Below are positions 41,090-62,605 of a DNA stretch of 64,000 bases, one piece after another. A model generated the notes under the pieces. The model was not told where the DNA came from. It saw only the letters and a program-made list of their open reading frames with translations, and did no database searches. This DNA comes from Parcubacteria group bacterium GW2011_GWB1_42_6. GTDB lineage: Bacteria; Patescibacteriota; Minisyncoccia; Portnoybacterales; GWB1-42-6. The stretch is from the NCBI GenBank assembly GCA_000997475.1, contig LCEC01000001.1:375-64374 (forward strand). Direction: 5' to 3'. Position numbers and translations under genes: made by a program. Position 1 is the first letter of the stretch; each line of letters opens with the position of its first letter.

Positions 41090-41107
41090 CTATATAATGC
41101 GAACCTA

Positions 41108-41186
41108 CGAACTTAATGCTAACTATGCGAACTGCGAAATCTGTTAAACCGGATTTATTTTCGCAGTTCGTAGGTTGGCATTAGAT
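41108..41186. repeat. GCGAA-motif palindrome
   Basis: gcgaacctacgaact ... agttcgtaggttggc inverted repeat with internal gcgaa repeats. Confidence 0.6.
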
Positions 41187-41210
41187 TCGCATATTTCGCA
41201 TCATAATTTT

Positions 41211-46767: not shown

Positions 46768-46883
46768 CACACCTAGTCAGGATATTTGAATTTAATTTGG
46801 ATAATAAACAAGTTTACTCCCAATGGCTTGTTTGTCTTCGAAGGATTCTTTGAATAAAAAACAATCCTGATTAGGCGCGGGGG
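46768..46883. mobile_element. MITE-like element B, copy 1
   Basis: (c)cacctagtcagga ... tcctgattaggcgcggggg imperfect TIRs; interior is the reverse complement of copy 2. Confidence 0.55.
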
Positions 46884-46937
46884 CAAGGGAAAAGAAATCC
46901 GATTGAACTTTTGAATTTGCCGTGCTAAGATTTTTAT

Positions 46938-48809: not shown

Positions 48810-48856
48810 CAGTTAATGCAAAATGCAAATTTCAAAACGCAGATTACTCTCTTTTT

Positions 48857-48935
48857 GTCATTCCCGCGCAGGCGGGAATCTAGATTAATTCAGAATTAGA
48901 CTTGGGTCTGGATCCCCGTTTTCACGGGGATGACA
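48857..48935. repeat. TIR-less copy of the MITE-A core (GTCAT..ATGAC multi-hairpin unit)
   Basis: gtcattcccgcgcaggcgggaatctagattaattcagaa.. is about 80% identical to 43761-43837. Confidence 0.55.
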
Positions 48936-49417: not shown

Positions 49418-49530
49418 GTGGATATCTTTATTGCGGAGAAGCGTTTTTTTGGATATAATTATTTAAGAAAATATCGGGCGCGAAAGAATCCTTCGTTTTG
49501 CCGCGCGCGCTTTTGAGTTGTAAATAAACT

Positions 49531-49647
49531 CCCGCACCTAGTCAGGATTGTTTTTTATTCAAAGAATCCTTCAAAGACAAACAAGCCATTGGGAGTAAAC
49601 TTGTTTATTATCCAAATTAAATTCAAATATCCTGACTAGGCGCGGGG
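49531..49647. mobile_element. MITE-like element B, copy 2 (inverted relative to copy 1)
   Basis: cccgcacctagtcagga ... tcctgactaggcgcgggg. Confidence 0.55.
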
Positions 49648-49659
49648 ATAAAATAAACT

Positions 49660-51537
49660 ATGGCGAAATTGATTTATTTAAAACCGAATCAAGACATAAC
49701 TTCGATAATCGGCTATCTTTGGCAAACCAAAGAACCTGAAATCGCGCTCGTTGCTCCAAAAAATTCGGTTTTATTGGAGAATCGCATTGCGCTTAAAATT
49801 CTCAAAAGAGAAGCGGACAACTGCGAAAAAGAGATAATTTTTGTCATCAAGGATTCGGAAAGCCGCGAAGCGGTGGAAGATCTGGGCTTTAAAACCAAAG
49901 TTTCCTGGCCGAAAAGCGAAATAAGCGAAGAAGAATCCGAAGAGGAAGAAAAAGTTATCAAAGAAATGCCGGCTGAAGATTACCAATTGATGATTGGCAA
50001 TCAGCTGAAGATAAAGCACGGAGCGGCTTCCAAGATCCGCTTTAGCGACATCAAAAAACCCGGGAATAAGAAAAAAGATTCGGATGAAAAAATTAAGAAA
50101 ATAAAATCAGCCGAAGAAAGCGAAGATGATTTTATTTTGGGACATTTGGCGGAACCGGAAAAAGAATTTTCTTTGCCCATTCCCCAAGAAACCGATGATT
50201 TTAAGGAGAAAGCGGAGACTTTCCTTAAAATAAAAAATTTCGCTCCGCGCGAAGAAATTAAAGAAGAAACGGTTCAAGAAGAATCTGTTCCTTTTGAAAA
50301 AATATTTGGCCGGGAAGAAAAGGAGATATTCATTAAGCCGCAAATTCATAACTTTTCCAAGAAGAAATTTTCCGGTTTCAAATTTCCTGATTTTTCTTCA
50401 AAGATCGTCATGCTTTTTGTCGGTTCGGCCGTGATTGTGGCGGGATTGGTTTTTTATTTTGTTTTGCCCAAAGCCGAAATCGAGGTTGTTCCAAAGGTGG
50501 AGGCGACCGAACAAGATTTAAACGTTGTGGCCGACAAGGGATCGGCGTTTATTGATTTGGGGAAAGGCGTAATTCCGGCGCAAGTGATTCGTTTTGATAA
50601 AAAATCATCTCGGGAATTCAACACTACGGGTGAAAGCCAAGCCAACGAGAAAGCTCGAGGCGTTATGACGGTTTATAATGAATACAGCTCTTCGCCGCAG
50701 GGCTTGGTTGAAAAAACGCGTTTTGTTTCGGCGGATGGAAAAGTTTTTCGGACCGTCAAATCCATCACTGTTCCGGGAGCTAAAATCAGCGAAGGGAAAG
50801 TGATCGCGAGTTCAATAGATGTTGAGGTGGCGGCCGACGAAGCGGGCGAATCGTATAATATTTCTCCGGGAAAATTTTTAATCCCCGGTTTTCAGGGATC
50901 GCCAAAATACGAAGGTTTCTACGGCATAACCAAAGACGCCATGTACGGCGGCACGACGGGAATTTCTAAAATTGTTTCGGCGGATGATGTCGAAATGGCC
51001 AAAAATGAAATCTGGGCGGATCTTCAAAAAGATTTGGAGAGCGACATAAAAACGCAAACGCCCGAAGGGTTGAAACTTTTGCCGGAAGCCAAAAAATTGG
51101 AAATCAGCTCATTCGATCCATCCGTTAAGGCGGGCGGCCGGGCTGATAAATTCACGATGACGGTCAAAGGAACCGGAATTCTCATTTTTTTTGACGAGCG
51201 CGACATTATTGAATTAGCCAGAGAAAATTCGGAAATTGAATCTTTGGAAAGCAAAGATTATTCCGATAAATTGTCGGAAGTTGTTTATTCCGAAGTTAGC
51301 GCTGATTTTGAAAAAAGCAAAATAAGTTTTAAAGCAAAGGTGGGGGAAAAATTGGTTTGGAAAATCAATGATTCCATTCTTAAGAGATTGATCGCCGGCC
51401 GGAATGAAACTGAAATCAGAACGATTTTGAATGACCGCGAAGAAGTGTTGAGCGCCAGGATTCTTTTCTGGCCTTTCTGGGTGGATGCCGTGCCTGATAA
51501 CCCGGACAGAGTGAATGTGAGCGTTAAAACGGATTGA
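49660..51537 (+). CDS. Hypothetical single-pass membrane protein with acidic linker
   Basis: 625 aa; central TM IVMLFVGSAVIVAGLVFYFVL; no recognisable motifs. Confidence 0.4.
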   Translation: MAKLIYLKPNQDITSIIGYLWQTKEPEIALVAPKNSVLLENRIALKILKREADNCEKEIIFVIKDSESREAVEDLGFKTKVSWPKSEISEEESEEEEKVIKEMPAEDYQLMIGNQLKIKHGAASKIRFSDIKKPGNKKKDSDEKIKKIKSAEESEDDFILGHLAEPEKEFSLPIPQETDDFKEKAETFLKIKNFAPREEIKEETVQEESVPFEKIFGREEKEIFIKPQIHNFSKKKFSGFKFPDFSSKIVMLFVGSAVIVAGLVFYFVLPKAEIEVVPKVEATEQDLNVVADKGSAFIDLGKGVIPAQVIRFDKKSSREFNTTGESQANEKARGVMTVYNEYSSSPQGLVEKTRFVSADGKVFRTVKSITVPGAKISEGKVIASSIDVEVAADEAGESYNISPGKFLIPGFQGSPKYEGFYGITKDAMYGGTTGISKIVSADDVEMAKNEIWADLQKDLESDIKTQTPEGLKLLPEAKKLEISSFDPSVKAGGRADKFTMTVKGTGILIFFDERDIIELARENSEIESLESKDYSDKLSEVVYSEVSADFEKSKISFKAKVGEKLVWKINDSILKRLIAGRNETEIRTILNDREEVLSARILFWPFWVDAVPDNPDRVNVSVKTD

Positions 51538-51632
51538 TTCTGCGGTGGGGGTTGACGAAAGCGGCTTTTGGGTATAACATTGTAATAAGCTGAAAATCAG
51601 ACAAAAAGCTTTAATTTTAAGACCAGTTCCGA

Positions 51633-51851
51633 GTGGGAAAAGAAAATTTTATAAAAAAGAACGGACGTGTTGTTGAAGCGTTGCCTAATGCCACTTTCAG
51701 AGTGAAATTGGAAGACGATTCGGAAATTCTAGCTCATCTTTCAGGAAAGATGAGGATGAATTTTATCCGGGTGATGATGGGCGATAAAGTGGCGGTGGAA
51801 ATGAGCCCGTATGATAATACGAAAGGCAGAATTGTTTTTCGGGAGAAATGA
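51633..51851 (+). CDS. infA: Translation initiation factor IF-1
   Basis: ..[60 protein letters not shown]; GTG start. Confidence 0.85.
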
Positions 51852-51960
51852 TTTTCAACCAACCGTGCTAAGCAATCCTTCTTCTTCGATGAAGAGGTTC
51901 CGCGGAAGCAAAGCGGAGCTGACGGTGCGTTTAGCGCGTTTTGTATTGGTTTTTTTCCTC

Positions 51961-52065
51961 ACTAATTACGAATAAATTTACTCCAATTACGAATAATTAT
52001 AGATTAATTGCGAGATGATGCGCTTCATTCGTAATTAGTTCTTAATTCGTAATTGGCGAGGATTC
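51961..52065. promoter_or_regulatory. TTCGTAATT palindromic module upstream of rpmJ
   Basis: Two copies of YYAATTACGAAT, a spacer, two copies of ATTCGTAATTRG, then GAGGATTC ATG. Confidence 0.5.
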
Positions 52066-52179
52066 ATGAAAGTTCGCGCTTCGGTTAAAAAAATATGCCA
52101 GAAATGCAAACTCGTGCGCCGAAAAGGCAAATTGCGGGTTATTTGCGCGATCAAAAAACATAATCAAAGACAAGGATGA
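52066..52179 (+). CDS. rpmJ: 50S ribosomal protein L36
   Basis: [37 protein letters not shown]; TGA stop. Confidence 0.8.
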
Positions 52180-52189
52180 AATCATTTTA

Positions 52190-52262
52190 ACATTTTAGCA
52201 TTTTAGCATTTTAGCATTTGAATTATTGAATTTTGTTAATATGCTAACATGTTGATATGTTA
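52190..52262. repeat. ATTTTAGC x3 array plus inverted TGCTAACATG motifs upstream of rpsM
   Basis: cattttagcattttagcattttagcatttgaatt..tatgctaacatgttgatatg. Confidence 0.5.
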
Positions 52263-52274
52263 AAATGACTAGCC

Positions 52275-52664
52275 ATGCCCAGAATCGCGGGAGTAAATAT
52301 TCCGGATAATAAAGTGATCGTCATCGCCCTCACGTATATTTACGGAATCGGGCGGACTTTGAGCAATAAAATTTTAGCCCAAGCAAAAATCGATCCGGGG
52401 GCGCGGGCCAATAAACTTTCGGCTGATGAAATTAACCGATTGAGAGAAATTATCGAAAAAGGATTGAGAGTCGAGGGGGAATTAAGGCGCGAAAGGATGA
52501 TGAACGTGAAAAGGTTGAAAGATATCGGTTCATACCGCGGGATAAGACATATCAAAGGTTTGCCGGTTCGAGGCCAAAGAACGAAAACAAACACCAGAAC
52601 CGTTCGCGGAAATATCCGCAAGACTATGGGTTCGGGCAGGAAGGCTTCGGCGGAAAAGACATAA
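52275..52664 (+). CDS. rpsM: 30S ribosomal protein S13
   Basis: [26 protein letters not shown]. Confidence 0.9.
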
Positions 52665-52667
52665 ATC

Positions 52668-52845
52668 TCGCTTCGCCCGCTTCTTTTCAAAAAACGCCAA
52701 AGCCGCATAACAAACAAATCATTTGGCTTTGGCTAAGCGCTCAACGCGCCGCATAAGACTATTTCAATATAAACAGCTTATGCCTTGGGCGCGTCTCGCG
52801 ATTTTTTTGAAAAGAACGGGCTTGCTCGTCGATAATAAAATCTAA
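52668..52845. repeat. Structured intergenic element between rpsM and rpsK
   Basis: Outer ~25-bp inverted repeat (cgcttcgcccgcttcttttcaaaaaa / tttttttgaaaagaacgggcttgctcg) enclosing two hairpins (gccaaagcc..ggctttggc; cgcgccgcataag..cttatgcc..ggcgcg). Confidence 0.55.
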
Positions 52846-52849
52846 ATTC

Positions 52850-53311
52850 ATGGGAAAGAAAAAAATTCAAACACAAAGCGAACAGGAAGCGTTGAAAGAA
52901 AAAGAAGTTCAGGAATCAGCTCAAAAGAAAGCCGTTGCGGCTCAACAGACTTCCGTTAAAAAAGGCGTTGAAAAAGGCAAGGTTTTCATCCAATCGACCT
53001 ATAACAACACTTTGATTTCTTTTTGCGACTTCAAGGGAAATATTATAGCCTGGTCAAGCGCCGGTTCTTTGGGATTCAAGGGACCGAAAAAAGCGACTCC
53101 GTATGCCGCTTCCAAAGTTATTGAAACATTGGTTGAAAAAATCAAGAAAGTCGGTATGAAGGAAGTTGACGTGTTTGTCAAAGGAATCGGCAGCGGCCGG
53201 GAAGCGGCCGTGAGAGCGATTGCCGCGCAGGGGATGTTAATAAATTCAATTAAAGACGTGACTCCGGTGCCTCATAATGGCTGCCGGCCCAGGAAAGTGA
53301 GAAGAGTCTAG
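52850..53311 (+). CDS. rpsK: 30S ribosomal protein S11 (with Lys-rich N-terminal extension)
   Basis: ..VFIQSTYNNTLISFCDFKGNIIAWSSAGSLGFKG. Confidence 0.9.
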   Translation: MGKKKIQTQSEQEALKEKEVQESAQKKAVAAQQTSVKKGVEKGKVFIQSTYNNTLISFCDFKGNIIAWSSAGSLGFKGPKKATPYAASKVIETLVEKIKKVGMKEVDVFVKGIGSGREAAVRAIAAQGMLINSIKDVTPVPHNGCRPRKVRRV

Positions 53312-53312
53312 A

Positions 53313-53392
53313 ACCCTACGGAATTACGGATTAGTACGGATATTACGGATTCAAATTGGATTTATCCGTATATTCGTAAAAATCCGTAAATC
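53313..53392. repeat. TACGGAT direct/inverted heptamer array (copy 2)
   Basis: ccctacggaattacggattagtacggatattacggatt.. first 38 nt almost identical to 24310-24347. Confidence 0.6.
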
Positions 53393-53406
53393 TATAGAAA
53401 ACCACA

Positions 53407-54039
53407 ATGGCAAGATTAACTGAAGCAAAATGCAGAAAATGCCGCCGAATGGGTGAAAAACTCTTTTTAAGAGGTGATCGCTGTTTTTCGGCCAAGTGCG
53501 CCGTGACAAGACGAGCCGTTGCTTCCGGAAGAAGACAAGGCAGAGGCCGCCGAGGCGGAATTTCTGAATTTGGGCGCCAACTTTCAGAAAAGCAAAAAGT
53601 CAAAAGAATCTACGGCGTTTTGGAAAGGCAGTTTAAAAATTATTTTGAAAAAGCGCAAGGAAGCAAAGGCGACACTCGTCAAAATTTGATTCAACTTTTG
53701 GAAAGCCGCTTGGATAATGTCGTTTTTCGCTTGGGTTGGGCCAAATCAAGAGCGGCCGCGAGGCAAATCGTGAATCACGGCCACATTTTGGTTAACGGGA
53801 AAAAATTGGATATTCCTTCTTACGAGGTGAAGGTTAACGATAAAATTTCTCCGAAAGAAAAAATAAGAAAATCGAAGTTGATGGAAGAAATTATTCCGTC
53901 ATTGAAAAAACATGAATTGCCGGGATGGCTTGGAATGGATCCGGAAACTTTAGAAGCGAAAGCCTTAAGCCGTCCTTCGGTTGAAGATTTGGGAGATTTG
54001 AGCTCAATCGGCTTGATAGTTGAATTTTATTCAAGGTAA
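53407..54039 (+). CDS. rpsD: 30S ribosomal protein S4
   Basis: MARLTEAKCRKCRRMGEKLFLRGDRC. Confidence 0.9.
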   Translation: MARLTEAKCRKCRRMGEKLFLRGDRCFSAKCAVTRRAVASGRRQGRGRRGGISEFGRQLSEKQKVKRIYGVLERQFKNYFEKAQGSKGDTRQNLIQLLESRLDNVVFRLGWAKSRAAARQIVNHGHILVNGKKLDIPSYEVKVNDKISPKEKIRKSKLMEEIIPSLKKHELPGWLGMDPETLEAKALSRPSVEDLGDLSSIGLIVEFYSR

Positions 54040-54049
54040 TTCGCTCCTC

Positions 54050-54148
54050 ACCAATTACGAATAAATCCAATCCAATTACGAATTAAAGCCGGCTACGAAT
54101 AGTTTTATATTCGTAATTGGTTCCAATTCGTAATTAGCGAGGAAAAAT
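54050..54148. promoter_or_regulatory. TTCGTAATT palindromic module upstream of rpoA
   Basis: ccaattacgaat x2 ... attcgtaattgg ttccaattcgtaattagcGAGGAaaaatATG. Confidence 0.5.
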
Positions 54149-55078
54149 ATGCAAATTAATCTTCCGCAAAGCACGAAGCAAATAAAATCCGAGCATAACC
54201 GGGCAATTTTTGAAGTTGAAGGGCTTTATCCCGGATACGGAGTTACTTTGGGAAACGCTTTAAGAAGAGCGCTTCTTTCTTCTTTGAAAGGAGCTGCTAT
54301 CACCGGAGTTAAAATCAAAGGAGCGCAGCATGAATTTTCCGCGATTCCGGGCATTTCTGAAGATGTGATTGAAATTATTTTAAATTTGAGGCAAATTCGT
54401 TTTAAACTTCATTCCGACGAGCCGGTCAAATTAAATTTATCCGTTAAGGGAGAAAAAGAAGTCAAGGCTTCGGACATTCAAACAACTTCCGAAGTTGAGA
54501 TAATCAATCCTGAAGCGCGCATTGCCACTCTGAATGACAAGAAAGCGGAATTGGAAATGGAAATTGAAGTGGAAAGCGGCTTTGGTTTTGTTCCGGTGGA
54601 AATCAGGAGAAAAGAAAAACTCGAGATCGGTTTGATTGCCGTTGATGCCGTTTTCGCGCCGATTAAAAAAGTTAATTTTGAAGTTGAAAATATGCGCGTG
54701 GGAGACAGGACTGATTTTAATCGCTTGAGACTTGACATCGAAACTGATGGCAGCATTACTCCGCAGGACGCTTTTCACAAATCATGCGAGATTCTGGTCG
54801 CTCAATTCAATTCTTTGATCGGCGAAAAAAAGGAAGAAGAGGAAAGCGGCCAAAAGGAAGAAGAAGCGCAAGATTCGGGAAAAATAAAGATTGAAGATTT
54901 AAAGCTTTCCACCCGGACCGCCAACGCTTTGGCGGAAGCGGGAATAAAAACAGCGGGAGGCTTGGCCAAAAAGACCGAAGATTCTTTGAGGGAAATGGAA
55001 GGAATGGGAGAAAAAGGAATTACCGAAGTGAAGAAAGCTTTAAAGAAATTGGGATTGGGCTTAAAAGAAGAGGTGTAA
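54149..55078 (+). CDS. rpoA: DNA-directed RNA polymerase subunit alpha
   Basis: ..GYGVTLGNALRRALLSS.. and an alpha-CTD after the acidic linker. Confidence 0.9.
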   Translation: MQINLPQSTKQIKSEHNRAIFEVEGLYPGYGVTLGNALRRALLSSLKGAAITGVKIKGAQHEFSAIPGISEDVIEIILNLRQIRFKLHSDEPVKLNLSVKGEKEVKASDIQTTSEVEIINPEARIATLNDKKAELEMEIEVESGFGFVPVEIRRKEKLEIGLIAVDAVFAPIKKVNFEVENMRVGDRTDFNRLRLDIETDGSITPQDAFHKSCEILVAQFNSLIGEKKEEEESGQKEEEAQDSGKIKIEDLKLSTRTANALAEAGIKTAGGLAKKTEDSLREMEGMGEKGITEVKKALKKLGLGLKEEV

Positions 55079-55149
55079 TGCCAATCTGCGAATGACACGC
55101 AAATGCCGCAAATTTATTCGTATGCACGCAATTTGCATGCTATTCGCAG

Positions 55150-55184
55150 AATTTGAATAAAATTTGTAAATTGGAATTATATTT
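55150..55184 (+). promoter_or_regulatory. Conserved 34-nt module abutting the rplQ start codon
   Basis: atttgaataaaatttgtaaattggaattatattt immediately 5' of ATG; near-identical copy at 61467-61501. Confidence 0.5.
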
Positions 55185-55517
55185 ATGAGAAAATTCGGAA
55201 GAGAAACGGATCAGCGCCGGGCATTTATCAGAAGCTTGGCTTCCAATCTCGTTTTAAACGAAAAAATAAAGACCACCGAAGCTCGCGCAAAAGAATTGCG
55301 CTCTTTCGTGGAAAGAATTATAACCCAAACCAAAAGCGGAAATTTGGCCGGATTAAGATTGGCCAAAAAAGAACTTTCCGCGCCGGCTTTAAAAAAACTT
55401 TCAAAAGAAATAGCTCCTCGTTTTAAAGAAAAAAGGAGCGGCTATACCCGCATTACCAAACTTGGACGCAGAATGAGCGACAGCGCCAGCATGGCTTTTA
55501 TCGAGTTGATCAAATAA
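55185..55517 (+). CDS. rplQ: 50S ribosomal protein L17
   Basis: MRKFGRETDQRRAFIRSLASNLVLNEKIKTT. Confidence 0.9.
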   Translation: MRKFGRETDQRRAFIRSLASNLVLNEKIKTTEARAKELRSFVERIITQTKSGNLAGLRLAKKELSAPALKKLSKEIAPRFKEKRSGYTRITKLGRRMSDSASMAFIELIK

Positions 55518-55518
55518 T

Positions 55519-55887
55519 ATGAAAAAAGAAACATTGACTCACACAATTGACGCTTCGGGTAAAATTTTGGGAAGATTAGCGGTTGATATCGCCGTGTTTT
55601 TGCGAGGCAAACAAAAGGTTGCTTTTTTGCCCTATATTGAGCCAACTGATCAGGTTATTGTTTTTAATGCTGAAAAGATCAAGGTGACCGGCAAAAAAAT
55701 GGCCCAGAAGCTTTATCGAACTCACTCTCTTTATCCGGGCGGGCTAAAGGAAAAAAAACTCGAAGTGGCGTTTAAAAATAATCCTTCTTGGGTTTTGAAA
55801 GAAGCGGTTTACGGCATGTTGCCCAAAAACAGAACCCGCAATAAGATTATCAAAAATCTGAAAATTTATAACGGAGAAATCAAATAA
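55519..55887 (+). CDS. rplM: 50S ribosomal protein L13
   Basis: ..DASGKILGRLAVDIAVFLRGK.. Confidence 0.9.
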   Translation: MKKETLTHTIDASGKILGRLAVDIAVFLRGKQKVAFLPYIEPTDQVIVFNAEKIKVTGKKMAQKLYRTHSLYPGGLKEKKLEVAFKNNPSWVLKEAVYGMLPKNRTRNKIIKNLKIYNGEIK

Positions 55888-55907
55888 ATCAAAGAATAGA
55901 ATTTTTT

Positions 55908-56492
55908 ATGGAAAAGAAAACTACCAAAAAAACGGCCAAGCCGGCTGCCAAAAAGATTGCCAAGCCTCATCGCAAAGAAGAAAAAAAAGAGGAGATTATT
56001 GTCGCCCAGGCCGCGCCGGAAATAAACAAAGAGATAATCGCCGAATCGGCTGAAATTTCAGCGAGTGAAATCAAGGAAAAAAAAGCCAAGAAATATTATG
56101 AAGCGGTTGGCCGAAGAAAAAACGCCATTGCCCGCGTCAGACTTTCCACCATTAAACCTTTTGAAGGAGATGAAGGAAAAATAACGGTGAATGGAAAAGA
56201 TTACCGGGAATATTTTCCGGGGCTTAATCTCAAGCAAAATGTTGAATCTCCTTTGAGAAGATTAAAATCTCTTAATCGTTTTGAAGTGATCGCCAAAACC
56301 AACGGAGGCGGAATCAACGGCCAAGCCGAAGCGGTCCGCCACGGCATTTCAAGGACTTTGGTTGAATTCAACGCCGATTTTCGCAAGAAACTCAAGAAAG
56401 CCGGATTCTTGAAGCGCGATCCGAGAGTCAAAGAACGCCGCAAATTCGGCCTCAAGAAAGCCCGCCGAGCTCCGCAGTGGGCGAAAAGATAA
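55908..56492 (+). CDS. rpsI: 30S ribosomal protein S9 (Lys/Glu-rich N-terminal extension)
   Basis: ..YYEAVGRRKNAIARVRL...GGGINGQAEAVRHGISRTL...ARRAPQWAKR. Confidence 0.9.
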   Translation: MEKKTTKKTAKPAAKKIAKPHRKEEKKEEIIVAQAAPEINKEIIAESAEISASEIKEKKAKKYYEAVGRRKNAIARVRLSTIKPFEGDEGKITVNGKDYREYFPGLNLKQNVESPLRRLKSLNRFEVIAKTNGGGINGQAEAVRHGISRTLVEFNADFRKKLKKAGFLKRDPRVKERRKFGLKKARRAPQWAKR

Positions 56493-56541
56493 AATATATC
56501 TCGATCAAAAAAACTCTCTCGTTTGTCGAGGGAGTTTTTGA

Positions 56542-56922
56542 TTGACTTATAATCATTGGTATATTAATATAATTAACATTCAAATAATGGGCTGTTCTTG
56601 CAATTTTAACAAGGAGGAAAAGGTGGAAAGGAATGCAGAAAAACTGATTTGTCAGGTTGAGGCGAATGCGAGAAATGCCGCTTATGCGCTTTGTCTTCGC
56701 GTATTTGCCCTTATCACGGTCCTTATTGCTTTAGAGACTCGGATAAGAACATTGTATCGGCCATCAGATTTGTGGGTTTTATTATTTCTTTCGTTTTTAT
56801 ACATTGTTCTTTCTTTCAAACTCTCTTTTGATATAAAAAGGGAGAAAGAAGAAATAAACTCAAGGGAACTTGTAAAACACGCTTTGACTTACGATAGAGC
56901 AGGTTCGGATAATGAGATATAA
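56542..56922 (+). CDS. Hypothetical small membrane protein
   Basis: 126-aa ORF with TM segments; probable start MGCSC at 56587. Confidence 0.3.
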   Translation: MTYNHWYINIINIQIMGCSCNFNKEEKVERNAEKLICQVEANARNAAYALCLRVFALITVLIALETRIRTLYRPSDLWVLLFLSFLYIVLSFKLSFDIKREKEEINSRELVKHALTYDRAGSDNEI

Positions 56923-56956
56923 AAAAAATCCCCGAGAAAAACTCGGGGATTTTTAA
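56921..56956 (+). terminator. Rho-independent terminator
   Basis: A8, hairpin atccccgag/ctcggggat, then T5. Confidence 0.7.
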
Positions 56957-57050
56957 ATTCTTGACTTATTTACATAAGAGGATCAATAATTAGTTTAAGC
57001 GCGAGGTTTCGATCTCGCTTGCCCTCTCACAATCACACAAGGAGGAGACC

Positions 57051-57809
57051 ATGGCTTCGGTCGGGTCTAAAGAGAAGAAAAGCAGAGCAAGGGTGCTTCT
57101 CGATTTTGCTCTTGGGGAAAAGCGTGTTTCTCTGGGCGGATTGTCTTTTTCGGAATTTGATGTTTTTTTGGAAGAAGTTCTGAAAATTGTTGACTTGCGG
57201 GAGATACGCGGTTTCGTGCCGCTAAGAGATCTCCTGACGATTAAACCCGAGGCGGTTATTGGAAGGACAAGAATCCACACTCTCGACATTGAGCAACTTG
57301 GTGCGGCTTCGGAGTTGCGCTTTTCGGCATATGAGTTTGAAAAAAATCCGCCGGATTTGGATTCTCATGTGTTAAGAATTTCGCGCGGTTGGAATTTCCA
57401 CGATATTGTTTATAAAAGATACGAATCCGAAGAGGAAACTCAAGACCGGGAGACCGCTCAATCGTGGGGAAATTCGTCTTACCATGCTTCGGGAAAGGGG
57501 ACATTTTTGGTTGTTTGCCGGCCGCCCAATCACACCGGCGCGGAACAAAATTTGGCAATAATAGATTTTTTTTACAGAAAAGTTCCGCATAAGCCCAAGC
57601 ATGTTGTGCATAAAGTTCACGCGACTTTTCTTCCGATTGGGAAATTCAGGCATTATTTCGGCCAGTCTTATCCCAAGATGGCTTGGGAAATAATAAGTGA
57701 ATTAAGAACCGCTTGCTCTCGGACGGCCGCCGATCTGAGATCTCAAGCGACCGCCATGGAGAGGGACGAAACAAATCTGAAAAGAATCACAGAATCAACA
57801 ACCTCGTGA
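57051..57809 (+). CDS. Hypothetical protein (GC-richer, strong SD)
   Basis: 252-aa ORF preceded by AAGGAGGAG; no recognisable motifs. Confidence 0.35.
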   Translation: MASVGSKEKKSRARVLLDFALGEKRVSLGGLSFSEFDVFLEEVLKIVDLREIRGFVPLRDLLTIKPEAVIGRTRIHTLDIEQLGAASELRFSAYEFEKNPPDLDSHVLRISRGWNFHDIVYKRYESEEETQDRETAQSWGNSSYHASGKGTFLVVCRPPNHTGAEQNLAIIDFFYRKVPHKPKHVVHKVHATFLPIGKFRHYFGQSYPKMAWEIISELRTACSRTAADLRSQATAMERDETNLKRITESTTS

Positions 57810-57827
57810 TTTTTTGCAGAATAACAA

Positions 57828-57862
57828 TAAAGCCGGTTCAAAAAGAGCCGGCTTATTTTTAT
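57828..57862. terminator. Putative bidirectional terminator
   Basis: Hairpin agccgg/ccggct plus T-run. Confidence 0.5.
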
Positions 57863-57873
57863 TCTTTAAAAAA

Positions 57874-58899
57874 TCAAAAATTTTCCGAAAGATAATAGAA
57901 ATTTTCATTGCCAAAATCGTAATAAATTTGAGGGGATTTGGCGGTGATAAAATCGGCGATATTGCGGCGGTCGCGGCCGTCAAGCTCGATAATTTTTATT
58001 TTATTTTCAATCACAAAGCAAATATGATCGTTGTCCGGATAAAAAATCGCTTGTTCGATTTTTTGGGCAAAACGGGTGATCATTTCTTTCTCGCCCGGCT
58101 TCTTGTAGGGCTGGAGCATTATTTCTTCCGCGTATAGAACCCAAATTTCGCTTTCCGAAAAAAACAGCAATCTTTTGTTATCATTGGAAAATTCCGCGCC
58201 GATGATTCCCGAAGCGATTGATTCAAGAATTTTCATTTCATCGTTTAACAAAAACAGTTCCTTTTGGGGAGTAATGACAGCGAATTTGTTTCGGTCGTTG
58301 GACGCGATAATTTCATAAGAAGAATGTTCCGGCAGGGGATTTTTTGAAATTTGTTCTTTGAGGGAGCCGTTTAAATTTGATCTGTAGAGATTGCGGTTTT
58401 CTTCGGAAATATAAAAAATTTCGTTATCTTTCAAAATCCAGCCCGGGGTGCTGGACGCGGCATTTAAAGCTTGTCCTTGCTTTTTTTTATTGCCGGAATT
58501 TTCCAAAAAATCTTTTATTGTGGTGGTGGCATTTTGGCTTAAAAGTTCGGCTTGCGGATTGGTCGGTATAAGCAAAACGCTTCTTGCTTCAGTGACGAGC
58601 TTGGGAGAAATATTAAGATTTTTTTCCCAGGAATGATAACCTTCCATTTCTATTTTTACGTTATAGGCGCGCGGAGCCAGATGTGAAAAAAGAGAAGGAG
58701 TTCTTCTTTCTTTTTCTCCATCAATAAAGATTTGCGCCTGGTTGGGCGTTGATTTGATATAAAGCCCTCCGGTTTTGGCCAGCCGCCAATTTTTCCAGTC
58801 AAACGAATAACCCGCCGTGTAGAGAATCGTGGGCGGGACGCTTATGAGAAATATAAGCACAAACAGGTAAAAAATCAGCCGTCGTTTGTTTCTGGTCAT
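57874..58899 (-). CDS. Membrane-anchored PEGA-domain protein
   Basis: N-terminal TM, then a PEGA-like segment (TPNQAQIFIDGEKERRTPSLFSHLAPRAYNVKIEMEGYHSWEKNLNI); the ORF-track entry extends to 58935. Confidence 0.45.
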   Translation of the reverse strand: MTRNKRRLIFYLFVLIFLISVPPTILYTAGYSFDWKNWRLAKTGGLYIKSTPNQAQIFIDGEKERRTPSLFSHLAPRAYNVKIEMEGYHSWEKNLNISPKLVTEARSVLLIPTNPQAELLSQNATTTIKDFLENSGNKKKQGQALNAASSTPGWILKDNEIFYISEENRNLYRSNLNGSLKEQISKNPLPEHSSYEIIASNDRNKFAVITPQKELFLLNDEMKILESIASGIIGAEFSNDNKRLLFFSESEIWVLYAEEIMLQPYKKPGEKEMITRFAQKIEQAIFYPDNDHICFVIENKIKIIELDGRDRRNIADFITAKSPQIYYDFGNENFYYLSENF

Positions 58900-59002
58900 A
58901 GGTGAATTATAGCCATGAAACGGCTTAAAAATCAATGTTATATTTTCCTTGCCAGATGTGTTTCTTTAAACTAAGATAAAAGAAAGAGAGGTTGAAATTT
59001 TT

Positions 59003-60271
59003 ATGGATAAATTCATTATAAACGGCGGGCGTCCTCTTGCGGGCGAAATTGAGGTGCGAGGCTCCAAAAACGCGGCTACGCCGATTTTGGCCGCCTGTCT
59101 TTTAACCGAAGAGCCCTGCGAAATAGACAATTTGCCTTTGATCGAGGATGTGTTTAGAATTATAGAAATTCTTAAAAGCATGGGTGTCGAGATTGAATGG
59201 ACCGGCCAAAGAAAAATAAAAGTTCAAGCAAAAAACATTAATCCCGGGCAAATTGATCAGCATAAAGTTTGCCAATTGAGATCGTCGATTTTAATAATCG
59301 GCGGACTTTTGGGCAGATTCGATGATTTCAAAATCGGCCATCCCGGCGGCTGCATTATCGGGAGCCGGCCGGTGGAAACCCATTTTGAAGCTTTGATAAA
59401 ATTAGGCATTAATGTTTCGGAGGAAAACAATTTTTATCAAATAAAAAAGAACGATTCCCAAGATTCCGTTTCCAGAAAAATTGTTTTAAAAGAATTTTCC
59501 GTAACCGCGACGGAGAATGTTTTAATGGCCTCGGTTCTTAGACCCGGGAAAACTATTTTGCGTATCGCGGCGGCCGAACCGCATGTAAAAGAATTGGCCG
59601 TTTTTTTGAATAAAATGGGAGCAAGAATCAGCGGGGTCGGCGCTCATGAAATTGAAATTGAAGGAGTAAAAAAATTAAAAGGCGCCGATCATTTTATTAT
59701 GCCTGATCCGATTGAGGCGGGAACTTTTATTATCGCGGCGGCTGCCACGCGGGGAAAAGTAAGGATAATTAACGCGATTCCCGATCACCTCGATTCGGTT
59801 TTGGAGAAGTTGAGGGAAATGGGAGTTAATCTCTCGGTTGAAAATGGCAGCGTTTCAGTGGGCAGTTCTTCGCGTTTTAAGGCGGCTAAAATCCAGGCCT
59901 TGCCTTTTCCGGGAATTCCAACCGATTTGCAAGCGCCGATAGCTGTTCTTTGCACGCAAGCCGAGGGGACAAGTTTAATCCACGATCCTTTATATGAAGG
60001 TCGGTTTAAATACATAAATGAACTGGTAAAAATGGGAGCCAGCGCCACAATTCTTGATCCTCATCGGGCGGTAATCACCGGACCGTCTTTTTTGTCGGGA
60101 AAAGAAATTACCAGTTTTGATTTGCGAGCTGGCGCCACTTTGATCATCGCGGCGCTGGTAGCCAAAGGCGAATCGCGAATTTCCGAAATTTACCAAGTTG
60201 ACAGAGGGTATGAAAAAATAGAAGAAAGGCTTTCGGCTTTGGGAGCGGATATAAGAAGAGTAAAAGAATAA
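59003..60271 (+). CDS. murA: UDP-N-acetylglucosamine 1-carboxyvinyltransferase MurA
   Basis: MDKFIINGGRPLAGEIEVRGSKNAATPILAACLL.. two-domain EPT fold. Confidence 0.9.
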   Translation: MDKFIINGGRPLAGEIEVRGSKNAATPILAACLLTEEPCEIDNLPLIEDVFRIIEILKSMGVEIEWTGQRKIKVQAKNINPGQIDQHKVCQLRSSILIIGGLLGRFDDFKIGHPGGCIIGSRPVETHFEALIKLGINVSEENNFYQIKKNDSQDSVSRKIVLKEFSVTATENVLMASVLRPGKTILRIAAAEPHVKELAVFLNKMGARISGVGAHEIEIEGVKKLKGADHFIMPDPIEAGTFIIAAAATRGKVRIINAIPDHLDSVLEKLREMGVNLSVENGSVSVGSSSRFKAAKIQALPFPGIPTDLQAPIAVLCTQAEGTSLIHDPLYEGRFKYINELVKMGASATILDPHRAVITGPSFLSGKEITSFDLRAGATLIIAALVAKGESRISEIYQVDRGYEKIEERLSALGADIRRVKE

Positions 60272-60379
60272 AATTTCCAATTATCAATTTTCAATCAATA
60301 TCAAATATTTAATATTGAAAATTGCTTTGCCCTTTGAAACTCAAATTCCGATTTGAGCGAAGAAGGGGATTATTGAAAA

Positions 60380-61402
60380 TTGAAAATTAATAGCTTGTTT
60401 ATAAAAAAAATAGGAATTGACCTGGGAACGGCCAATACCCTGGTTTATGTGCCGGGAAAAGGCATTATCATCAACGAACCTACGGTAGTGGCTGTTTCCA
60501 TCAGCGACAATAAAATTCTGGCGGTAGGCAACGAAGCCAGAGAAATGCTCGGCCGCACACCCGATGCGATTATGGCTTTGCGTCCGATGAAAGACGGAGT
60601 GATTGCCGATTATCGGGTGACGGAAGCGATGCTTCGCTATTTTATAAATAAAACCGCCGGATCCCTGCGTTTTTTCAGGCCGGAAGTCATGGTGGCGGTT
60701 CCCGCGGGAATAACTTCAACTGAAAAGCGCGCGGTGGTGGATGCCACTCTTAATGCCGGCGCCAAAGCGGCTTATGTGGTTAAGGAGCCGGTTTTGGCCG
60801 CTATCGGGGCGGGGATTCCAATTAACGAACCGGCCGGGCATATGATTATTGATATCGGCGGGGGGACTTCGGAAGTGGCCGTGATTTCTTTGGGAGGAAT
60901 CGTGGCTTGCGCTTCGGCAAGAGTCGGCGGCAATAAAATCGATCAATCGATTGCCGAATATATCCGCAAAAAACATAATTTGGCCATTGGCGAAAGAATG
61001 GCCGAAGAAATAAAATTTACCATCGGCTCGGCTCTTCCGCAAAAAGACGAACAGAAAATGGACGTAAGAGGCAGGGATTTAATAGCCGGCTTGCCAAAAA
61101 CGATTGAAATAAAAAGCAACGAAGTCACAGAAGCGATTTCCGAAAATCTGCGCGAGGTGATCGTGGCGATAAAAAGCGTTTTGCAAAATACTCCTCCCGA
61201 ACTTTCGGCGGATATTATCGATCGGGGAATGATTATTTCCGGAGGCGGGGCATTGTTGCGGAATATGCCGGAGCTTATTGAAAAAGCTACCGGTGTTGCT
61301 TGTTACGCGGCCGAAAATCCGCTTTTTTGCGTGGCCAAGGGCGCGGGAATAGCCCTGGAGCATTTGGAAATTTATAAGAGAAGCGTGATGTCGAAGAAAT
61401 AG
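60380..61402 (+). CDS. mreB: Rod shape-determining protein MreB
   Basis: GIDLGTANTLVYV.. actin-like ATPase motifs; TTG or alternative start. Confidence 0.85.
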   Translation: MKINSLFIKKIGIDLGTANTLVYVPGKGIIINEPTVVAVSISDNKILAVGNEAREMLGRTPDAIMALRPMKDGVIADYRVTEAMLRYFINKTAGSLRFFRPEVMVAVPAGITSTEKRAVVDATLNAGAKAAYVVKEPVLAAIGAGIPINEPAGHMIIDIGGGTSEVAVISLGGIVACASARVGGNKIDQSIAEYIRKKHNLAIGERMAEEIKFTIGSALPQKDEQKMDVRGRDLIAGLPKTIEIKSNEVTEAISENLREVIVAIKSVLQNTPPELSADIIDRGMIISGGGALLRNMPELIEKATGVACYAAENPLFCVAKGAGIALEHLEIYKRSVMSKK

Positions 61403-61466
61403 TATGCGAATCGCGCAAATTCATGCGAATTGCGCACATGCGAATAAAATGCGAATCCCATTCGAG

Positions 61467-61501
61467 GCATTTGAATAAAATTCGTAGATTGGAATTATAT
61501 T
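61467..61501 (+). promoter_or_regulatory. Conserved 34-nt module abutting the GT4 start codon (copy of 55150-55184)
   Basis: atttgaataaaattcgtagattggaattatatt immediately 5' of ATG. Confidence 0.5.
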
Positions 61502-62605
61502 ATGACTATTGGCATTAACGCCTCGGCGGCTGTCAAAAAGAATAGAACCGGAGTGGAAGAATACGCTTATCAGCTCATAAAGCATTTGGCGATGATTCCC
61601 GAGTCCCAAAAGCATCGTTTTTTTCTATATTTGCCATCCGCAGTTTTAGCAAAGGAAGGTTTGCCCGACAATGTTTTTGATTTTTCTTTCCCTGAAAATT
61701 TTATAATAAAAAAACTTTGGTGGCCGCTGCCTTTCTTCTGGACGCAAATAAGATTGTCTCTGGAAATGATTTTTTTTGCGCCGGACGTTCTTTTCATCCC
61801 CGTTCATATTTTGCCTTTCATTCATCCAAAAAAATCCATTGTTTGTGTTCACGGCCTTGAATATGAATATCTGCGCGGATTCTATTCTTTTTCCCATCGT
61901 TTGTTTTTGCGTTGGAGCACCAAATTTTCCGCCGCGAAATCTTTCCGGATAATCGCGGTTTCTCAAAATACCAAGAACGATTTGGCAAAAATATATAAGA
62001 CAGATACTGATAAAATAAAAGTGGTAAAACACGGGATTTCCTTTCCCCCTTTAGAAAGGGGGATTAAGGGGGATTTTTTAAGGAAGAAAGAAAAATATAT
62101 TTTATATCTAGGCCGCATCGAAACCAAGAAGAATATCCAAGGAATTATTGAAGCGTATGAAATTCTGAATAACAAATATAGCATTCACCACAAGCTTGTT
62201 TTAGCCGGTTCAAAAGGATACGGCCATAAGAATTTAAAAATACCGAGCGATGTGATTCAGACCGGATTCGTGAGCCAAGAAAAAAAAGAAGTCTTGATGA
62301 ACAACGCCGCAATATTTCTATTTCCCTGTTTTTACGAGGGTTTTGGTTTGCCGATTCTTGAAGCTCAAGCGGCGGGAATTCCCGTCGTGACTTCTTATAA
62401 TTCTTCAATGCCGGAAGTGGCCGGGGAAGGGGCTTTATTTGTTGATCCGCGCAATCCGGCTCAAATCGCCCGGGCCGTTAAAAAAATAATTGACGACAAT
62501 CTCTTGCGTGATAAACTGATACAATCGGGATTTGAGAACATAAAAAAATTTTCTTGGGAAAAATGCGCTCGGGAAACGCTGGATTTTTTAAGCAGCTTGG
62601 AATAG
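61502..62605 (+). CDS. Glycosyltransferase family 4 (GT-B)
   Basis: C-terminal EGFGLPILEAQAAGIPVVT sugar-donor-binding motif. Confidence 0.75.
   Translation: MTIGINASAAVKKNRTGVEEYAYQLIKHLAMIPESQKHRFFLYLPSAVLAKEGLPDNVFDFSFPENFIIKKLWWPLPFFWTQIRLSLEMIFFAPDVLFIPVHILPFIHPKKSIVCVHGLEYEYLRGFYSFSHRLFLRWSTKFSAAKSFRIIAVSQNTKNDLAKIYKTDTDKIKVVKHGISFPPLERGIKGDFLRKKEKYILYLGRIETKKNIQGIIEAYEILNNKYSIHHKLVLAGSKGYGHKNLKIPSDVIQTGFVSQEKKEVLMNNAAIFLFPCFYEGFGLPILEAQAAGIPVVTSYNSSMPEVAGEGALFVDPRNPAQIARAVKKIIDDNLLRDKLIQSGFENIKKFSWEKCARETLDFLSSLE
62041..62075. repeat. In-frame GC-rich palindromic insertion within the GT4 gene
   Basis: ctttccccctttagaaagggggattaagggggat encodes SFPPLERGIKGD. Confidence 0.55.

What the first reader, a model, noticed from the sequence alone, without database searches (positions are those of the whole stretch)
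55150..55184. Near-identical 34-nt element abutting the start codons of two unrelated genes (rplQ and a GT4 gene)
Upstream of rplQ: atttgaataaaatttgtaaattggaattatatttATG. Upstream of the GT4 at 61467-61501: atttgaataaaattcgtagattggaattatattATG. This gives 32 of 34 identities, ending exactly at the ATG. Both are preceded by GCGAAT/ATTCGC-rich sequence. The element contains TTGAAT and TATATT hexamers with roughly promoter-like spacing. If it is a promoter, the transcripts would be leaderless or nearly so. Alternatively it is the terminal segment of a dispersed element that supplies start contexts.
Basis: seen in the sequence. Interest (0 to 1): 0.55.

Follow-up and report, generated by a model that had tools for sequence, protein, structure and literature searches.

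The report
Arm of a dispersed palindromic repeat
The near-identical 34-base stretch in front of rplQ and a glycosyltransferase gene is not a private promoter. It is the right-hand arm of a small hairpin-forming mobile-type repeat that has filled the tiny gaps between genes in this ultra-small groundwater bacterium, with cousins in related bacteria.

Summary
Windows 55152-55183 and 61470-61501 match at 30 of 32 bases, and none of 100 shuffles gave two such matches. Each copy ends 1-2 nt before an ATG. It is not a two-copy oddity. A metagenome scan found the same sequence in about 9-10 unrelated gene contexts of the same Parcubacteria population (GW2011_GWA1_42_7 and sister MAGs). The 34-mer is part of a 41-nt right arm. 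Its inverted partner is a 38-nt left arm (TAATGCCAATCTGC...), and the two enclose a variable middle, giving 78-127-nt hairpin elements. At rplQ the left arm starts on the rpoA stop codon and the right arm ends at the rplQ ATG. Syntenic relatives have only 2-4 nt between rpoA and rplQ, so the element is an insertion. Copies occur in both orientations, inside operons, and downstream of canonical promoters. The hexamers fail a sigma-70 consensus scan, and the -10-like box sits too close to the ATG. The leaderless-promoter reading is therefore not supported. Cousin elements with the same end motif and the same stop-to-start fit occur in other Patescibacteria. I judge it a new MITE/Correia-like family. 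Any role in expression is inferred only.

The parts
55076..55113 (+). Left arm (left terminal inverted repeat, 38 nt, TAATGCCAATCTGCGAATGACACGCAAATGCCGCAAAT). Its first three bases are the rpoA stop codon TAA (55076-55078).
   Evidence: The nhmmer left-arm profile scores 45.8 bits here, and the same profile hits the reverse complement of right arms at E 4e-5 to 3e-4. The pattern search is. The rpoA ORF ends at 55078.
55114..55140 (+). Variable middle of the rplQ copy. It is made of GCAAAT/ATTCG words that form an inner hairpin. The middle is 0-50 nt long in other copies.
   Evidence: Alignment A2 and the fold.
55141..55184 (+). Right arm (41 nt, TATTCGCAGAATTTGAATAAAATTTGTAAATTGGAATTATA) plus a TTT tail.
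   Evidence: nhmmer right-arm profile 41.7 bits. In the consensus hairpin, 55162-55179 pairs with 55076-55093. CM R1 scores 116.9 bits on the + strand and 70.2 bits on the - strand of the same place, so the element is a palindrome.
61403..61458 (+). Middle-type sequence of the GT4 copy, with four ATGCGAAT words. There is no clear outer left arm. The CM aligns a degenerate left arm back to 61386, inside the mreB 3' end, but that stretch is native mreB coding sequence.
   Evidence: 45.3 bits, E 1.6e-5. The MreB C-terminus RSVMSKK is conserved in relative L116, which has no element.
61459..61501 (+). Right arm of the GT4 copy (41 nt) plus a TT tail. It abuts the GT4 ATG at 61502.
   Evidence: nhmmer 47.5 bits.
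41090..41188 (.). Cousin element (TATAATGCGAACCTACGAAC...GTTCGTAGGTTGGCATTA). It lies between the stop codon at 41087-41089 and the next gene, whose start is likely the ATG at 41213.
   Evidence: (24 of 32 match to the reverse complement of the 34-mer), (fold z = -7.2; 34.6 bits).
54045..54143 (+). Related 'family 2' palindromic element filling the rpsD-rpoA spacer. The left arm is TCCTCACCAATTACGAAT. The right arm is ATTCGTAATTAGCGAGGA, and its GAGGA lies 5 nt before the rpoA ATG.
   Evidence: D5, D9; fold z = -7.0.
51951..52065 (+). Second full family-2 element. Its right arm ATTCGTAATTGGCGAGGA lies 3 nt before an ATG at 52066, which by eye is the start of rpmJ (MKV...).
   Evidence: 29.8 bits.

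Best explanation
The 34-mer is the outer two-thirds of the right arm of a short, non-coding, palindromic dispersed repeat 78-127 nt long. The repeat has a 38-nt left arm, a variable middle and a 41-nt right arm that is the imperfect inverted complement of the left arm. It is a MITE/Correia-like element. The two window copies are alike because they descend from the same repeat family, not because rplQ and the GT4 gene share a regulatory signal. The element sits exactly between a stop codon and the next start codon. In this lineage the ancestral spacers are only a few bases wide, so only insertions that leave both reading frames intact survive (inferred). When transcribed, the two arms can pair into a hairpin with a 16-bp outer stem, a 6x6 internal loop and a 9-bp inner stem. 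This puts the upstream stop codon at the 5' foot of the stem and the downstream ATG about 5 nt from the 3' foot. My working model, which is inference only, is that this geometry lets a ribosome terminating on the upstream gene melt the foot of the stem and free the A/U-rich start region. A roughly 100-nt insertion would then remain compatible with coupled translation in operons such as rpoA-rplQ. How the element spreads is unknown (transposase in trans, or recombination).
For: Dispersal: a metagenome scan found 14 loci that reduce to about 9-10 different contexts. These are rpoA|rplQ, mreB|GT4, the stop codon of a TrxB-like gene, nusB|rnc, grpE|dnaK, typA, secE, a valS-like ORF and an Nramp gene. 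The flanking proteins belong to one species-level population, MAGs GWA1_42_7, GWB1_42_6 and GWC1_43_12. Inverted arms: the left-arm profile hits the reverse complement of right arms. The consensus fold has 25 pairs, one of them compensatory. Individual copies fold with z = -3 to -6 on either strand. The CM scores both strands of the rplQ copy. Insertion: syntenic relatives have TAA-TT-ATG (L113) and TAA-TAAT-ATG (L116) between rpoA and rplQ, against 106 nt here. Their other alpha-operon spacers are also 5-26 nt in L116, against 95-185 nt here. Geometry: rpoA TAA is the first 3 nt of the left arm. In the two reversed copies the stop lies 6-8 nt before the hairpin and the start 5-7 nt after it. 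Cousins in Staskawiczbacteria (L047, 65 bits), L062 and L115 show the same stop-to-start fit. L17 is full length, 110 aa like its relatives, so the ATG is the native start.
Against: No transposase or full-length IS with the same ends was found. No unambiguous target-site duplication can be read, because the flanking TA/AT dinucleotides are part of the conserved termini. No presence/absence polymorphism was seen within the population. Mobility is therefore inferred from dispersal and from empty sites in species whose L17 is only about 70% identical. Three copies (GT4, typA allele L102, valS-like) have only the right arm, and all three point at an ATG 2-6 nt away. That could mean the right arm has a function of its own. 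Overall, the right arm faces a start codon in 7 contexts and the left arm in 2. The search pattern fixed 24 of 29 positions, so copy number and sequence variation are underestimated. The translational-coupling model has no experimental or transcript support.
Confidence: 0.8

Rival explanations
1. The 34-mer is a sigma-70-type promoter (TTGAAT ... TATATT/ATTATA) that produces leaderless or near-leaderless mRNAs for rplQ and the GT4 gene.
For: TTGAAT and TATATT are present. Three right-arm-only copies and four full copies point at an ATG 2-6 nt away. Most genes in the window lack a Shine-Dalgarno motif (11 of 46 have one).
Against: The consensus scan does not list either copy, nor the copies in L104 and L105. 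The TTGAAT-TATATT spacing is 19 nt. TATATT ends 1 nt before the ATG, so a start site would fall inside the ORF. ATTATA (17-nt spacing) matches TATAAT at only 2 of 6 positions and lacks A2 and T6. Two copies are reversed relative to the genes, and one right arm faces a stop codon. rplQ follows rpoA by 2-4 nt in relatives, the classic co-transcribed arrangement. Good canonical promoters lie upstream of the element at secE and typA. The TTGAAT box is not kept in cousin elements, whereas the arm-end motif is.
Confidence: 0.06
2. The shared sequence is an operator or binding site that co-regulates a regulon including rplQ, the GT4 gene, typA, secE and others.
For: The same sequence is found in front of several genes, with high identity among copies.
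Against: The genes are functionally unrelated. Copies occur next to stop codons of convergent genes and in reverse orientation. The sequence always comes with, or as a remnant of, an inverted partner arm. It is absent from the orthologous spacers of relatives.
Confidence: 0.04
3. It is a REP/REPIN-type element spread by a RAYT (REP-associated tyrosine transposase).
For: The element is two inverted units around a spacer, like a REPIN (PMC3337134). GTAG/CTAC tetranucleotides occur in the arms (ATTCGTAGATTGG, CCAATCTACAAAT), and GTAG is the REP hallmark (PMC3733652). A Y1 transposase gene lies about 2.8 kb downstream of the GT4 start, in L014 and L011.
Against: A single arm is not itself a palindrome: the 34-mer region folds with z = +0.3. 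GTAG lies inside the stem rather than tagging the end of a small hairpin. The nearby Y1 gene is an IS200 equivalog (NF033573) flanked by its own unrelated hairpins. No RAYT was seen in the sequence I hold.
Confidence: 0.08
4. The element is a domesticated, functional intercistronic cassette rather than a merely tolerated selfish repeat. It would serve as an RNase III processing site, an mRNA stabiliser, or a hairpin that enforces translational coupling.
For: The stop-to-start geometry is kept in both orientations and in cousins from other Patescibacteria lineages. In family 2 the right arm carries GAGGA 3-5 nt before the ATG at six sites or more, and the left arm carries the complementary TCCTC. 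The Shine-Dalgarno would therefore be masked until the stem foot is opened. An RNase III homologue is encoded in the population. Precedents exist in Correia, ERIC and REP elements (PMC2649163, PMC10969869).
Against: Tiny ancestral spacers alone force any surviving insertion to lie next to stop and start codons. G-U against A-C asymmetry gives no sign of selection on the transcribed strand in the reversed copies. Relatives do well without the element. There are no expression data.
Confidence: 0.25
5. The two copies come from a purely local duplication or gene conversion between two spacers 6.3 kb apart.
For: The two window copies are close together and 94% identical.
Against: At least seven further contexts lie on other contigs of the same population.
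Confidence: 0.01

Closest known systems
Correia repeat-enclosed elements (CREE / nemis) of Neisseria
   Same: Both are about 100-150-nt non-coding elements with terminal inverted repeats and a variable or deletable core. Both are dispersed in many copies, mostly just 5' of genes. Both are co-transcribed as long hairpins, and CREE hairpins are RNase III substrates. Solo repeats also occur in both (PMC2649163, PMC10969869).
   Different: There is no sequence relationship: the CREE core ends CCGGTACGG and TCAGGACAA are absent. The phylum is different. CREE ends create consensus promoters, whereas these arms fail the promoter scan. This element fits exactly from stop codon to start codon, and no target duplication can be read.
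MITEs of prokaryotes in general (ERIC, RUP, Nezha, Chunjie and others)
   Same: It is small, A/T-rich and non-coding, with terminal inverted repeats, many dispersed copies, partial copies and hairpin potential. Orthologous sites in relatives are empty.
   Different: No cognate insertion sequence or transposase is known. The target-site duplication is unresolved. The hosts are ultra-small Patescibacteria genomes, for which the paper searches found no such family described.
REP / BIME / REPIN elements with RAYT
   Same: Both are intergenic and often intercistronic palindromic repeats inside operons. Both consist of two inverted units with a spacer, and both contain GTAG/CTAC tetranucleotides.
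   Different: The individual arms are not small palindromes. GTAG is not an end tag. No RAYT was found, and the neighbouring Y1 gene is an ordinary IS200.
Putative mobile promoters (Matus-Garcia et al., PMC3488235)
   Same: Both describe nearly identical upstream sequence in front of non-homologous genes in one genome.
   Different: Here the shared sequence is an arm of a palindromic repeat, shows no promoter consensus, and also occurs next to stop codons and in reverse orientation.

Membership tests
MITE (miniature inverted-repeat transposable element) | Short (tens to a few hundred bp) and non-coding | tested here: met
   Full copies are 78-127 nt and have no ORF.
MITE (miniature inverted-repeat transposable element) | Terminal inverted repeats | tested here: met
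   The left-arm profile hits the reverse complement of right arms (E 4e-5 to 3e-4). The consensus fold has 25 pairs. The CM scores both strands.
MITE (miniature inverted-repeat transposable element) | Multiple copies at unrelated loci of one genome | tested here: met
   About 9-10 contexts in one species-level population.
MITE (miniature inverted-repeat transposable element) | Target-site duplication flanking each copy | tested here: inconclusive
   Only TA or AT could be duplicated, and both lie inside the conserved TAAT/ATTA termini. Flanks beyond them differ.
MITE (miniature inverted-repeat transposable element) | Empty orthologous sites (evidence of insertion) | tested here: met
   The rpoA-rplQ spacer is 2 nt in L113 and L114 and 4 nt in L116, against 106 nt here. 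This holds only across species; no polymorphism was seen within the population.
MITE (miniature inverted-repeat transposable element) | Cognate autonomous element or transposase sharing the termini | not testable with these tools
   None was found in about 250 kb of held population sequence.
Correia / CREE | 26-bp Correia repeat and characteristic core, Neisseria only | tested here: not met
   The host is Parcubacteria. The core ends CCGGTACGG and TCAGGACAA (PMC2649163) are absent from the element sequence.
Correia / CREE | Ends generate sigma-70 promoters | tested here: not met
   The consensus scans do not flag the arms in the sense orientation. The only hit involving an arm end is an antisense TATAAT at one site.
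REP / REPIN | Each unit is itself a 20-40 bp imperfect palindrome | tested here: not met
   The right-arm regions alone fold at z = +0.3.
REP / REPIN | GTAG or CGTC tag at one end of the palindrome | tested here: inconclusive
   GTAG/CTAC are present but lie inside the long stem.
REP / REPIN | Single-copy RAYT gene flanked by the repeats | tested here: not met
   The only Y1 gene seen (L014 4996-5439) is an IS200 equivalog with unrelated flanking hairpins. The rest of the genome was not seen.
Sigma-70 promoter for a leaderless mRNA | -35 and -10 hexamers 16-18 nt apart, with the -10 ending about 5-9 nt before the A of the ATG | tested here: not met
   The spacing to TATATT is 19 nt, and TATATT ends 1 nt before the ATG. 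ATTATA matches 2 of 6 positions.
Sigma-70 promoter for a leaderless mRNA | Primary transcript 5' end at the start codon | not testable with these tools
   No transcript data are available.

The most novel reading that the evidence does not exclude
These elements, together with the related family whose arm carries the Shine-Dalgarno and whose partner arm carries its complement, form a Patescibacteria-wide superfamily of 'stop-to-start' palindromic cassettes. They are tolerated, and perhaps retained, because the hairpin folds the inserted 80-130 nt out of the way and places the upstream stop codon and the downstream start site at the foot of one stem. A terminating ribosome would open the stem foot and expose the start region or the Shine-Dalgarno, so the element preserves or even enforces translational coupling. 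It may also double as an RNase III processing site. That would be a mobile element whose architecture is shaped by the ribosome rather than by promoters.
Probability: 0.2. Interest if true: 0.7.

Novelty: new member of a known kind. Interest (0 to 1): 0.45.

Why it matters
Patescibacteria (CPR) genomes are about 1 Mb and are usually described as streamlined. Here almost every spacer of the conserved infA-rpsM-rpsK-rpsD-rpoA-rplQ operon has been expanded from a few bases to 95-185 nt, mostly by hairpin-forming filler and in three spacers by the repeat families named here. One family recurs in front of unrelated essential genes. For annotation, this explains repeated 'promoter-like' sequence in front of unrelated genes and warns against reading it as shared regulation. 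It also warns of contig breaks and chimeras at these repeats. For biology, it offers a tractable case of how a 100-nt insertion can sit between translationally coupled genes. A conserved end motif (TAATGCCAAT...) can be used to hunt for the mobilising enzyme in CPR.

Tried and rejected
1. A genome-contig scan with the 29-nt pattern gave 0 hits. The species is not among the GTDB representatives, and the closest MurA there is 68% identical.
2. nhmmer with arm profiles over about 250 kb of population loci found no extra diverged copies beyond those from the pattern scan.
3. An Rfam scan of 51500-62000 found nothing at either copy, only sub-threshold miRNA-like hits on other hairpins.
4. The Y1 transposase near the GT4 genes was considered as the mobilising partner and rejected. 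It is an IS200 equivalog with its own unrelated subterminal hairpins.
5. I tested whether the element had truncated L17 and supplied a new ATG. It has not: relatives' L17 proteins are also 110-111 aa and align over the full length, and the first codons are conserved across the empty sites.
6. I tried to read a target-site duplication from six full copies and two empty sites. It was inconclusive.
7. I looked for strand-specific G-U pairing as a sign of RNA-level selection. It was uninformative.
8. Paper searches for CPR/Patescibacteria MITE- or REP-like repeats found no description.
9. TIGR arrays, which turned up in the literature search, were considered for the word-repeat hairpins but not pursued. 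I ran no test on this. The units here are 7-10-nt words inside single hairpins, not long arrays.

Full report
OBSERVATION. Copy 1 is 55151-55184, followed by the L17 (rplQ) ATG at 55185. Copy 2 is 61469-61501, followed by the GT4 glycosyltransferase ATG at 61502. Gene identities come from Pfam. Thirty-one of 33 alignable bases are identical, both differences are transitions, and copy 1 has one extra T. A degenerate 32-mer allowing 3 mismatches finds only these two sites in the window, against 0.00 expected from shuffles. Both copies are present unchanged in independent ENA, JGI and Logan assemblies of the same population.

ORGANISM AND GENE CONTEXT. The L17 protein is 100% identical to that of 'Parcubacteria group bacterium GW2011_GWA1_42_7', a Rifle groundwater CPR/Patescibacteria MAG. 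The next most similar L17 is only 71% identical. rplQ lies in the usual infA-(rpmJ)-rpsM-rpsK-rpsD-rpoA-rplQ-rplM-rpsI cluster. The GT4 gene follows murA-mreB, 6.3 kb downstream.

IT IS A DISPERSED FAMILY. A scan of the species-representative genomes found nothing, because this species is not represented there (best MurA 68%). A scan of metagenome contigs with TTGAATAAAATTNNNNNATTGGAATTATA gave 14 loci. These reduce to about 9-10 different flanking contexts:
- rpoA|rplQ
- mreB|GT4
- next to the stop codon of a convergent TrxB-like gene
- nusB|rnc (element reversed relative to the genes)
- grpE|dnaK (reversed)
- 5' of typA/bipA (two alleles)
- 5' of secE
- 5' of a valS-like ORF
- 5' of an Nramp transporter

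Several neighbours were confirmed by Pfam. The flanking proteins occur in the MAGs GWA1_42_7, GWB1_42_6 and GWC1_43_12, often as identical sequences, so this is one species-level population. One context, L109 (typA with a full element), shares its left 392 nt with L112 and its right 849 nt with L105. It may be a recombinant or an assembly chimera at the repeat.

ANATOMY. Six contexts also carry a conserved 38-nt left arm, TAATGCCAATCTGCAAATGACAYGCAAATGCCGCAAAT. The left arm is the imperfect inverted complement of the right arm:
- A profile of left arms hits the reverse complement of right arms at E 4e-5 to 3e-4.
- RNAalifold gives a 25-pair hairpin with a 16-bp outer stem, a 6x6 internal loop (GACAYG opposite AAUAAA) and a 9-bp inner stem. 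One pair is compensatory.
- Single copies fold with z = -3 to -6 on either strand.
- A covariance model built from the copies scores the rplQ copy at 117 bits on the plus strand and 70 bits on the minus strand.

The shortest copy (grpE|dnaK) is just the two arms, 78 nt. The GT4, valS-like and one typA copy have only the middle and/or the right arm. At rplQ the left arm begins with the rpoA stop codon (TAA at 55076-55078), and the right arm ends 3 nt before the ATG.

IT IS AN INSERTION. Three relatives with the same gene order were fetched through their L17 proteins, which are 68-70% identical. Between rpoA and rplQ they read:
- L113/L114: TAA-TT-ATG
- L116: TAA-TAAT-ATG
- L115: a 59-nt, different but similar-sounding palindromic filler

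The first L17 codons are conserved in L113, L114 and L116, where the protein begins MRKFGRETDQ. In L115 the called L17 is 116 aa and begins differently (LKHLKKNRKF). In L116 the other spacers of the operon are 5-26 nt, whereas in the window they are 95-185 nt, and most are long hairpins running from just after the stop codon to just before the start. The mreB-GT4 spacer of L115 holds yet another unrelated palindrome. The ancestral state is therefore tight packing. This lineage has acquired roughly 100-nt palindromic insertions, and the 34-mer's family is one of them.

THE PROMOTER / LEADERLESS READING. This reading is not supported, for six reasons:
- TTGAAT (55153-58) and TATATT (55178-83) are 19 nt apart. 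TATATT ends 1 nt before the ATG, so a transcript started 5-9 nt downstream of it could not contain that ATG.
- The alternative ATTATA, at 17-nt spacing, matches TATAAT at 2 of 6 positions.
- The consensus scan lists neither window copy, nor the copies at secE and typA.
- At those two genes, good canonical promoters lie 100-130 nt upstream of the element, which is then 5'-UTR: TTGACA-16-TAGAAT (11 of 12) and TTGACT-17-TATACT (10 of 12).
- Two copies are reversed relative to the flanking operon genes, and one right arm faces a stop codon.
- Cousin elements keep the arm-end motif but not the TTGAAT box.

The absence of a Shine-Dalgarno is not special. Only 11 of 46 genes in the window have an SD-like tetramer, and A/U-rich sequence before the ATG is the norm.

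COUSINS AND THE STOP-TO-START FIT. The window holds a related element at 41090-41188. It also holds a second family, TCCTCACYAATTACGAAT...ATTCGTAATTRGYGAGGA, at six or more sites in the population. That family's right arm places GAGGA 3-5 nt before an ATG (rpoA and a likely rpmJ among others), and its left arm carries the complement. The covariance model also finds cousins in other Patescibacteria loci:
- a Staskawiczbacteria MAG (L047): 65 bits, E about 1e-9, and a second hit of 41 bits
- L062: 39 and 38 bits
- L115: 37 bits
- a Falkowbacteria MAG (L038): 31 bits
- weaker hits elsewhere

These E-values are rough. nhmmer separately found two copies of a cousin in L040 whose right end also abuts an ATG. 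Where checked, the cousins again run from a stop codon to a start codon. In L062 the upstream TAA is the first 3 nt of the arm and the ATG lies 8 nt after the element. In L047 the stop overlaps one end and the other end reads GGCATTAtattcATG. In L115 the element runs from 2 nt after the rpsD stop right up to the rpoA ATG.

MECHANISM: WHAT IS SHOWN AND WHAT IS INFERRED.
- Shown: the family is dispersed, the arms are inverted, hairpins are predicted, relatives have empty sites, and the ends lie next to stop and start codons in both orientations.
- Inferred (i): the family spread by some form of transposition or repeat-mediated recombination. No enzyme is known, and the target duplication is unreadable because TA/AT are part of the conserved termini.
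- Inferred (ii): abutment to the ATG is largely a survivorship effect. The ancestral spacers are only a few bases long, so any tolerated insertion must touch both neighbours.
- Inferred (iii): the hairpin makes the insertion tolerable. It brings stop and start back together, and a terminating ribosome would melt the stem foot and free the start region, or the SD in family 2.

The right arm also has an A/T tail, TATT(T)AT, that the left arm does not mirror. In 6 contexts this tail is followed directly by G, completing the ATG (7 contexts if the valS-like copy, whose tail differs and whose ATG lies 6 nt after ATTATA, is counted). All three solo right arms face a start codon. A start-proximal role or a target preference of the right end therefore cannot be excluded.

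COMPARISON WITH KNOWN SYSTEMS. The element behaves like a bacterial MITE, and most like Neisseria Correia elements, which are small, have inverted ends, mostly lie 5' of genes and form co-transcribed hairpins (PMC2649163, PMC10969869). It is not a member of that family, because it has no shared sequence and no consensus promoters at its ends. It resembles REPINs in being two inverted units around a spacer and in containing GTAG. However, its arms are not themselves palindromes, and the only nearby Y1 transposase is an ordinary IS200 with unrelated hairpins (PMC3733652, PMC3337134). It fits the descriptive category of 'putative mobile promoters' (PMC3488235) only in that identical sequence precedes unrelated genes. 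Searches of the paper library found no description of such repeats in CPR/Patescibacteria.

VERDICT. The promoter reading is not supported. The dispersed-element reading is supported. This is a new family, with cousins forming a probable superfamily, of a known kind of element. Its tidy stop-to-start geometry is worth an experiment. Interest is moderate (0.45).

LIMITS. Copy number comes from an exact-pattern scan, so it is underestimated, and the conservation of the pattern positions is not informative. The complete genome was not available. E-values from the covariance model are rough. There are no transcript or protein-binding data.

Noticed in passing
window 51951-52065, 54045-54143, 25795-25815, 16264-16284; L100 7037-7148; L099 ~348: A second palindromic repeat family. 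Its right arm ATTCGTAATTRGYGAGGA puts a GAGGA Shine-Dalgarno 3-5 nt before an ATG, and its left arm carries the complementary TCCTCAC, so the SD is paired in the predicted hairpin (z = -7).
   Followed up: partly
window 21908-22150, 23090-23343, 24305-24452, 33698-33899, 52665-52849, 53312-53406: Many other intergenic spacers are long hairpins (z = -6 to -9.6) running from just after a stop codon. Several are built from short direct-repeat 'words' on one arm (TACGGAT, ATTTTAGC, AATTTCC) with their complements on the other. Relatives show the same style with different words (CAGTTT/AAACTG in L115 11522-11624).
   Followed up: partly
L113 3410-3750; L115 3365-3462, 4006-4271, 10174-10513: In relatives, another recurrent insertion sits exactly between a stop codon and the next ATG at three different spacers (rpsM-rpsK, rpsK-rpsD, murA-mreB). 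It begins AGGGCTT right after the stop, contains CTCAATTTTGTAGC, and ends ATTGGC just before the ATG. The longest copy seems to contain a small ORF.
   Followed up: no
L014 4880-5480 (just beyond the window's 3' end); also L011 3151-3594: An IS200 (Y1 transposase, NF033573 equivalog, 147 aa) flanked by its own GC-rich hairpins lies about 300 nt downstream of the second GT4 gene. It is unrelated in sequence to the element studied.
   Followed up: yes
L109 versus L112 and L105: The same left flank plus element is joined to typA in one contig and to an Nramp gene in another, while typA has a different upstream region in a third contig. This is either recombination between repeat copies or an assembly chimera at the repeat.
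   Followed up: partly
window 43728-43876, 48810-48901, 49418-49659, 46800-46937: Further repeated intergenic motifs are present (GTCATTCCCGC...GCGGGAATGAC with CTAGATTAATTCAGAA, and CCTGACTAGGCGCGGGG / CCTAATCGGCAT inverted pairs). They suggest additional repeat families.
   Followed up: no
window, 46 gene starts: Only 11 of 46 genes have an SD-like tetramer within 21 nt upstream. Most starts are preceded by A/U-rich sequence, and many genes overlap or are 1-6 nt apart.
   Followed up: partly
right end of every copy, e.g. window 55176-55181 and 61494-61499 (minus strand); L104 3607-3635: The reverse complement of the right-arm end is a perfect TATAAT. At the secE site it combines with a TTGACG inside the gene start to give an 11-of-12 antisense promoter-like match reading into the element.
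   Followed up: no
L100, ORF next to the nusB|rnc copy: The RNase III homologue in this contig is only 133 aa. It has the catalytic domain but apparently no dsRNA-binding domain. This could be a frameshift in the assembly or a Mini-III-like enzyme.
   Followed up: no
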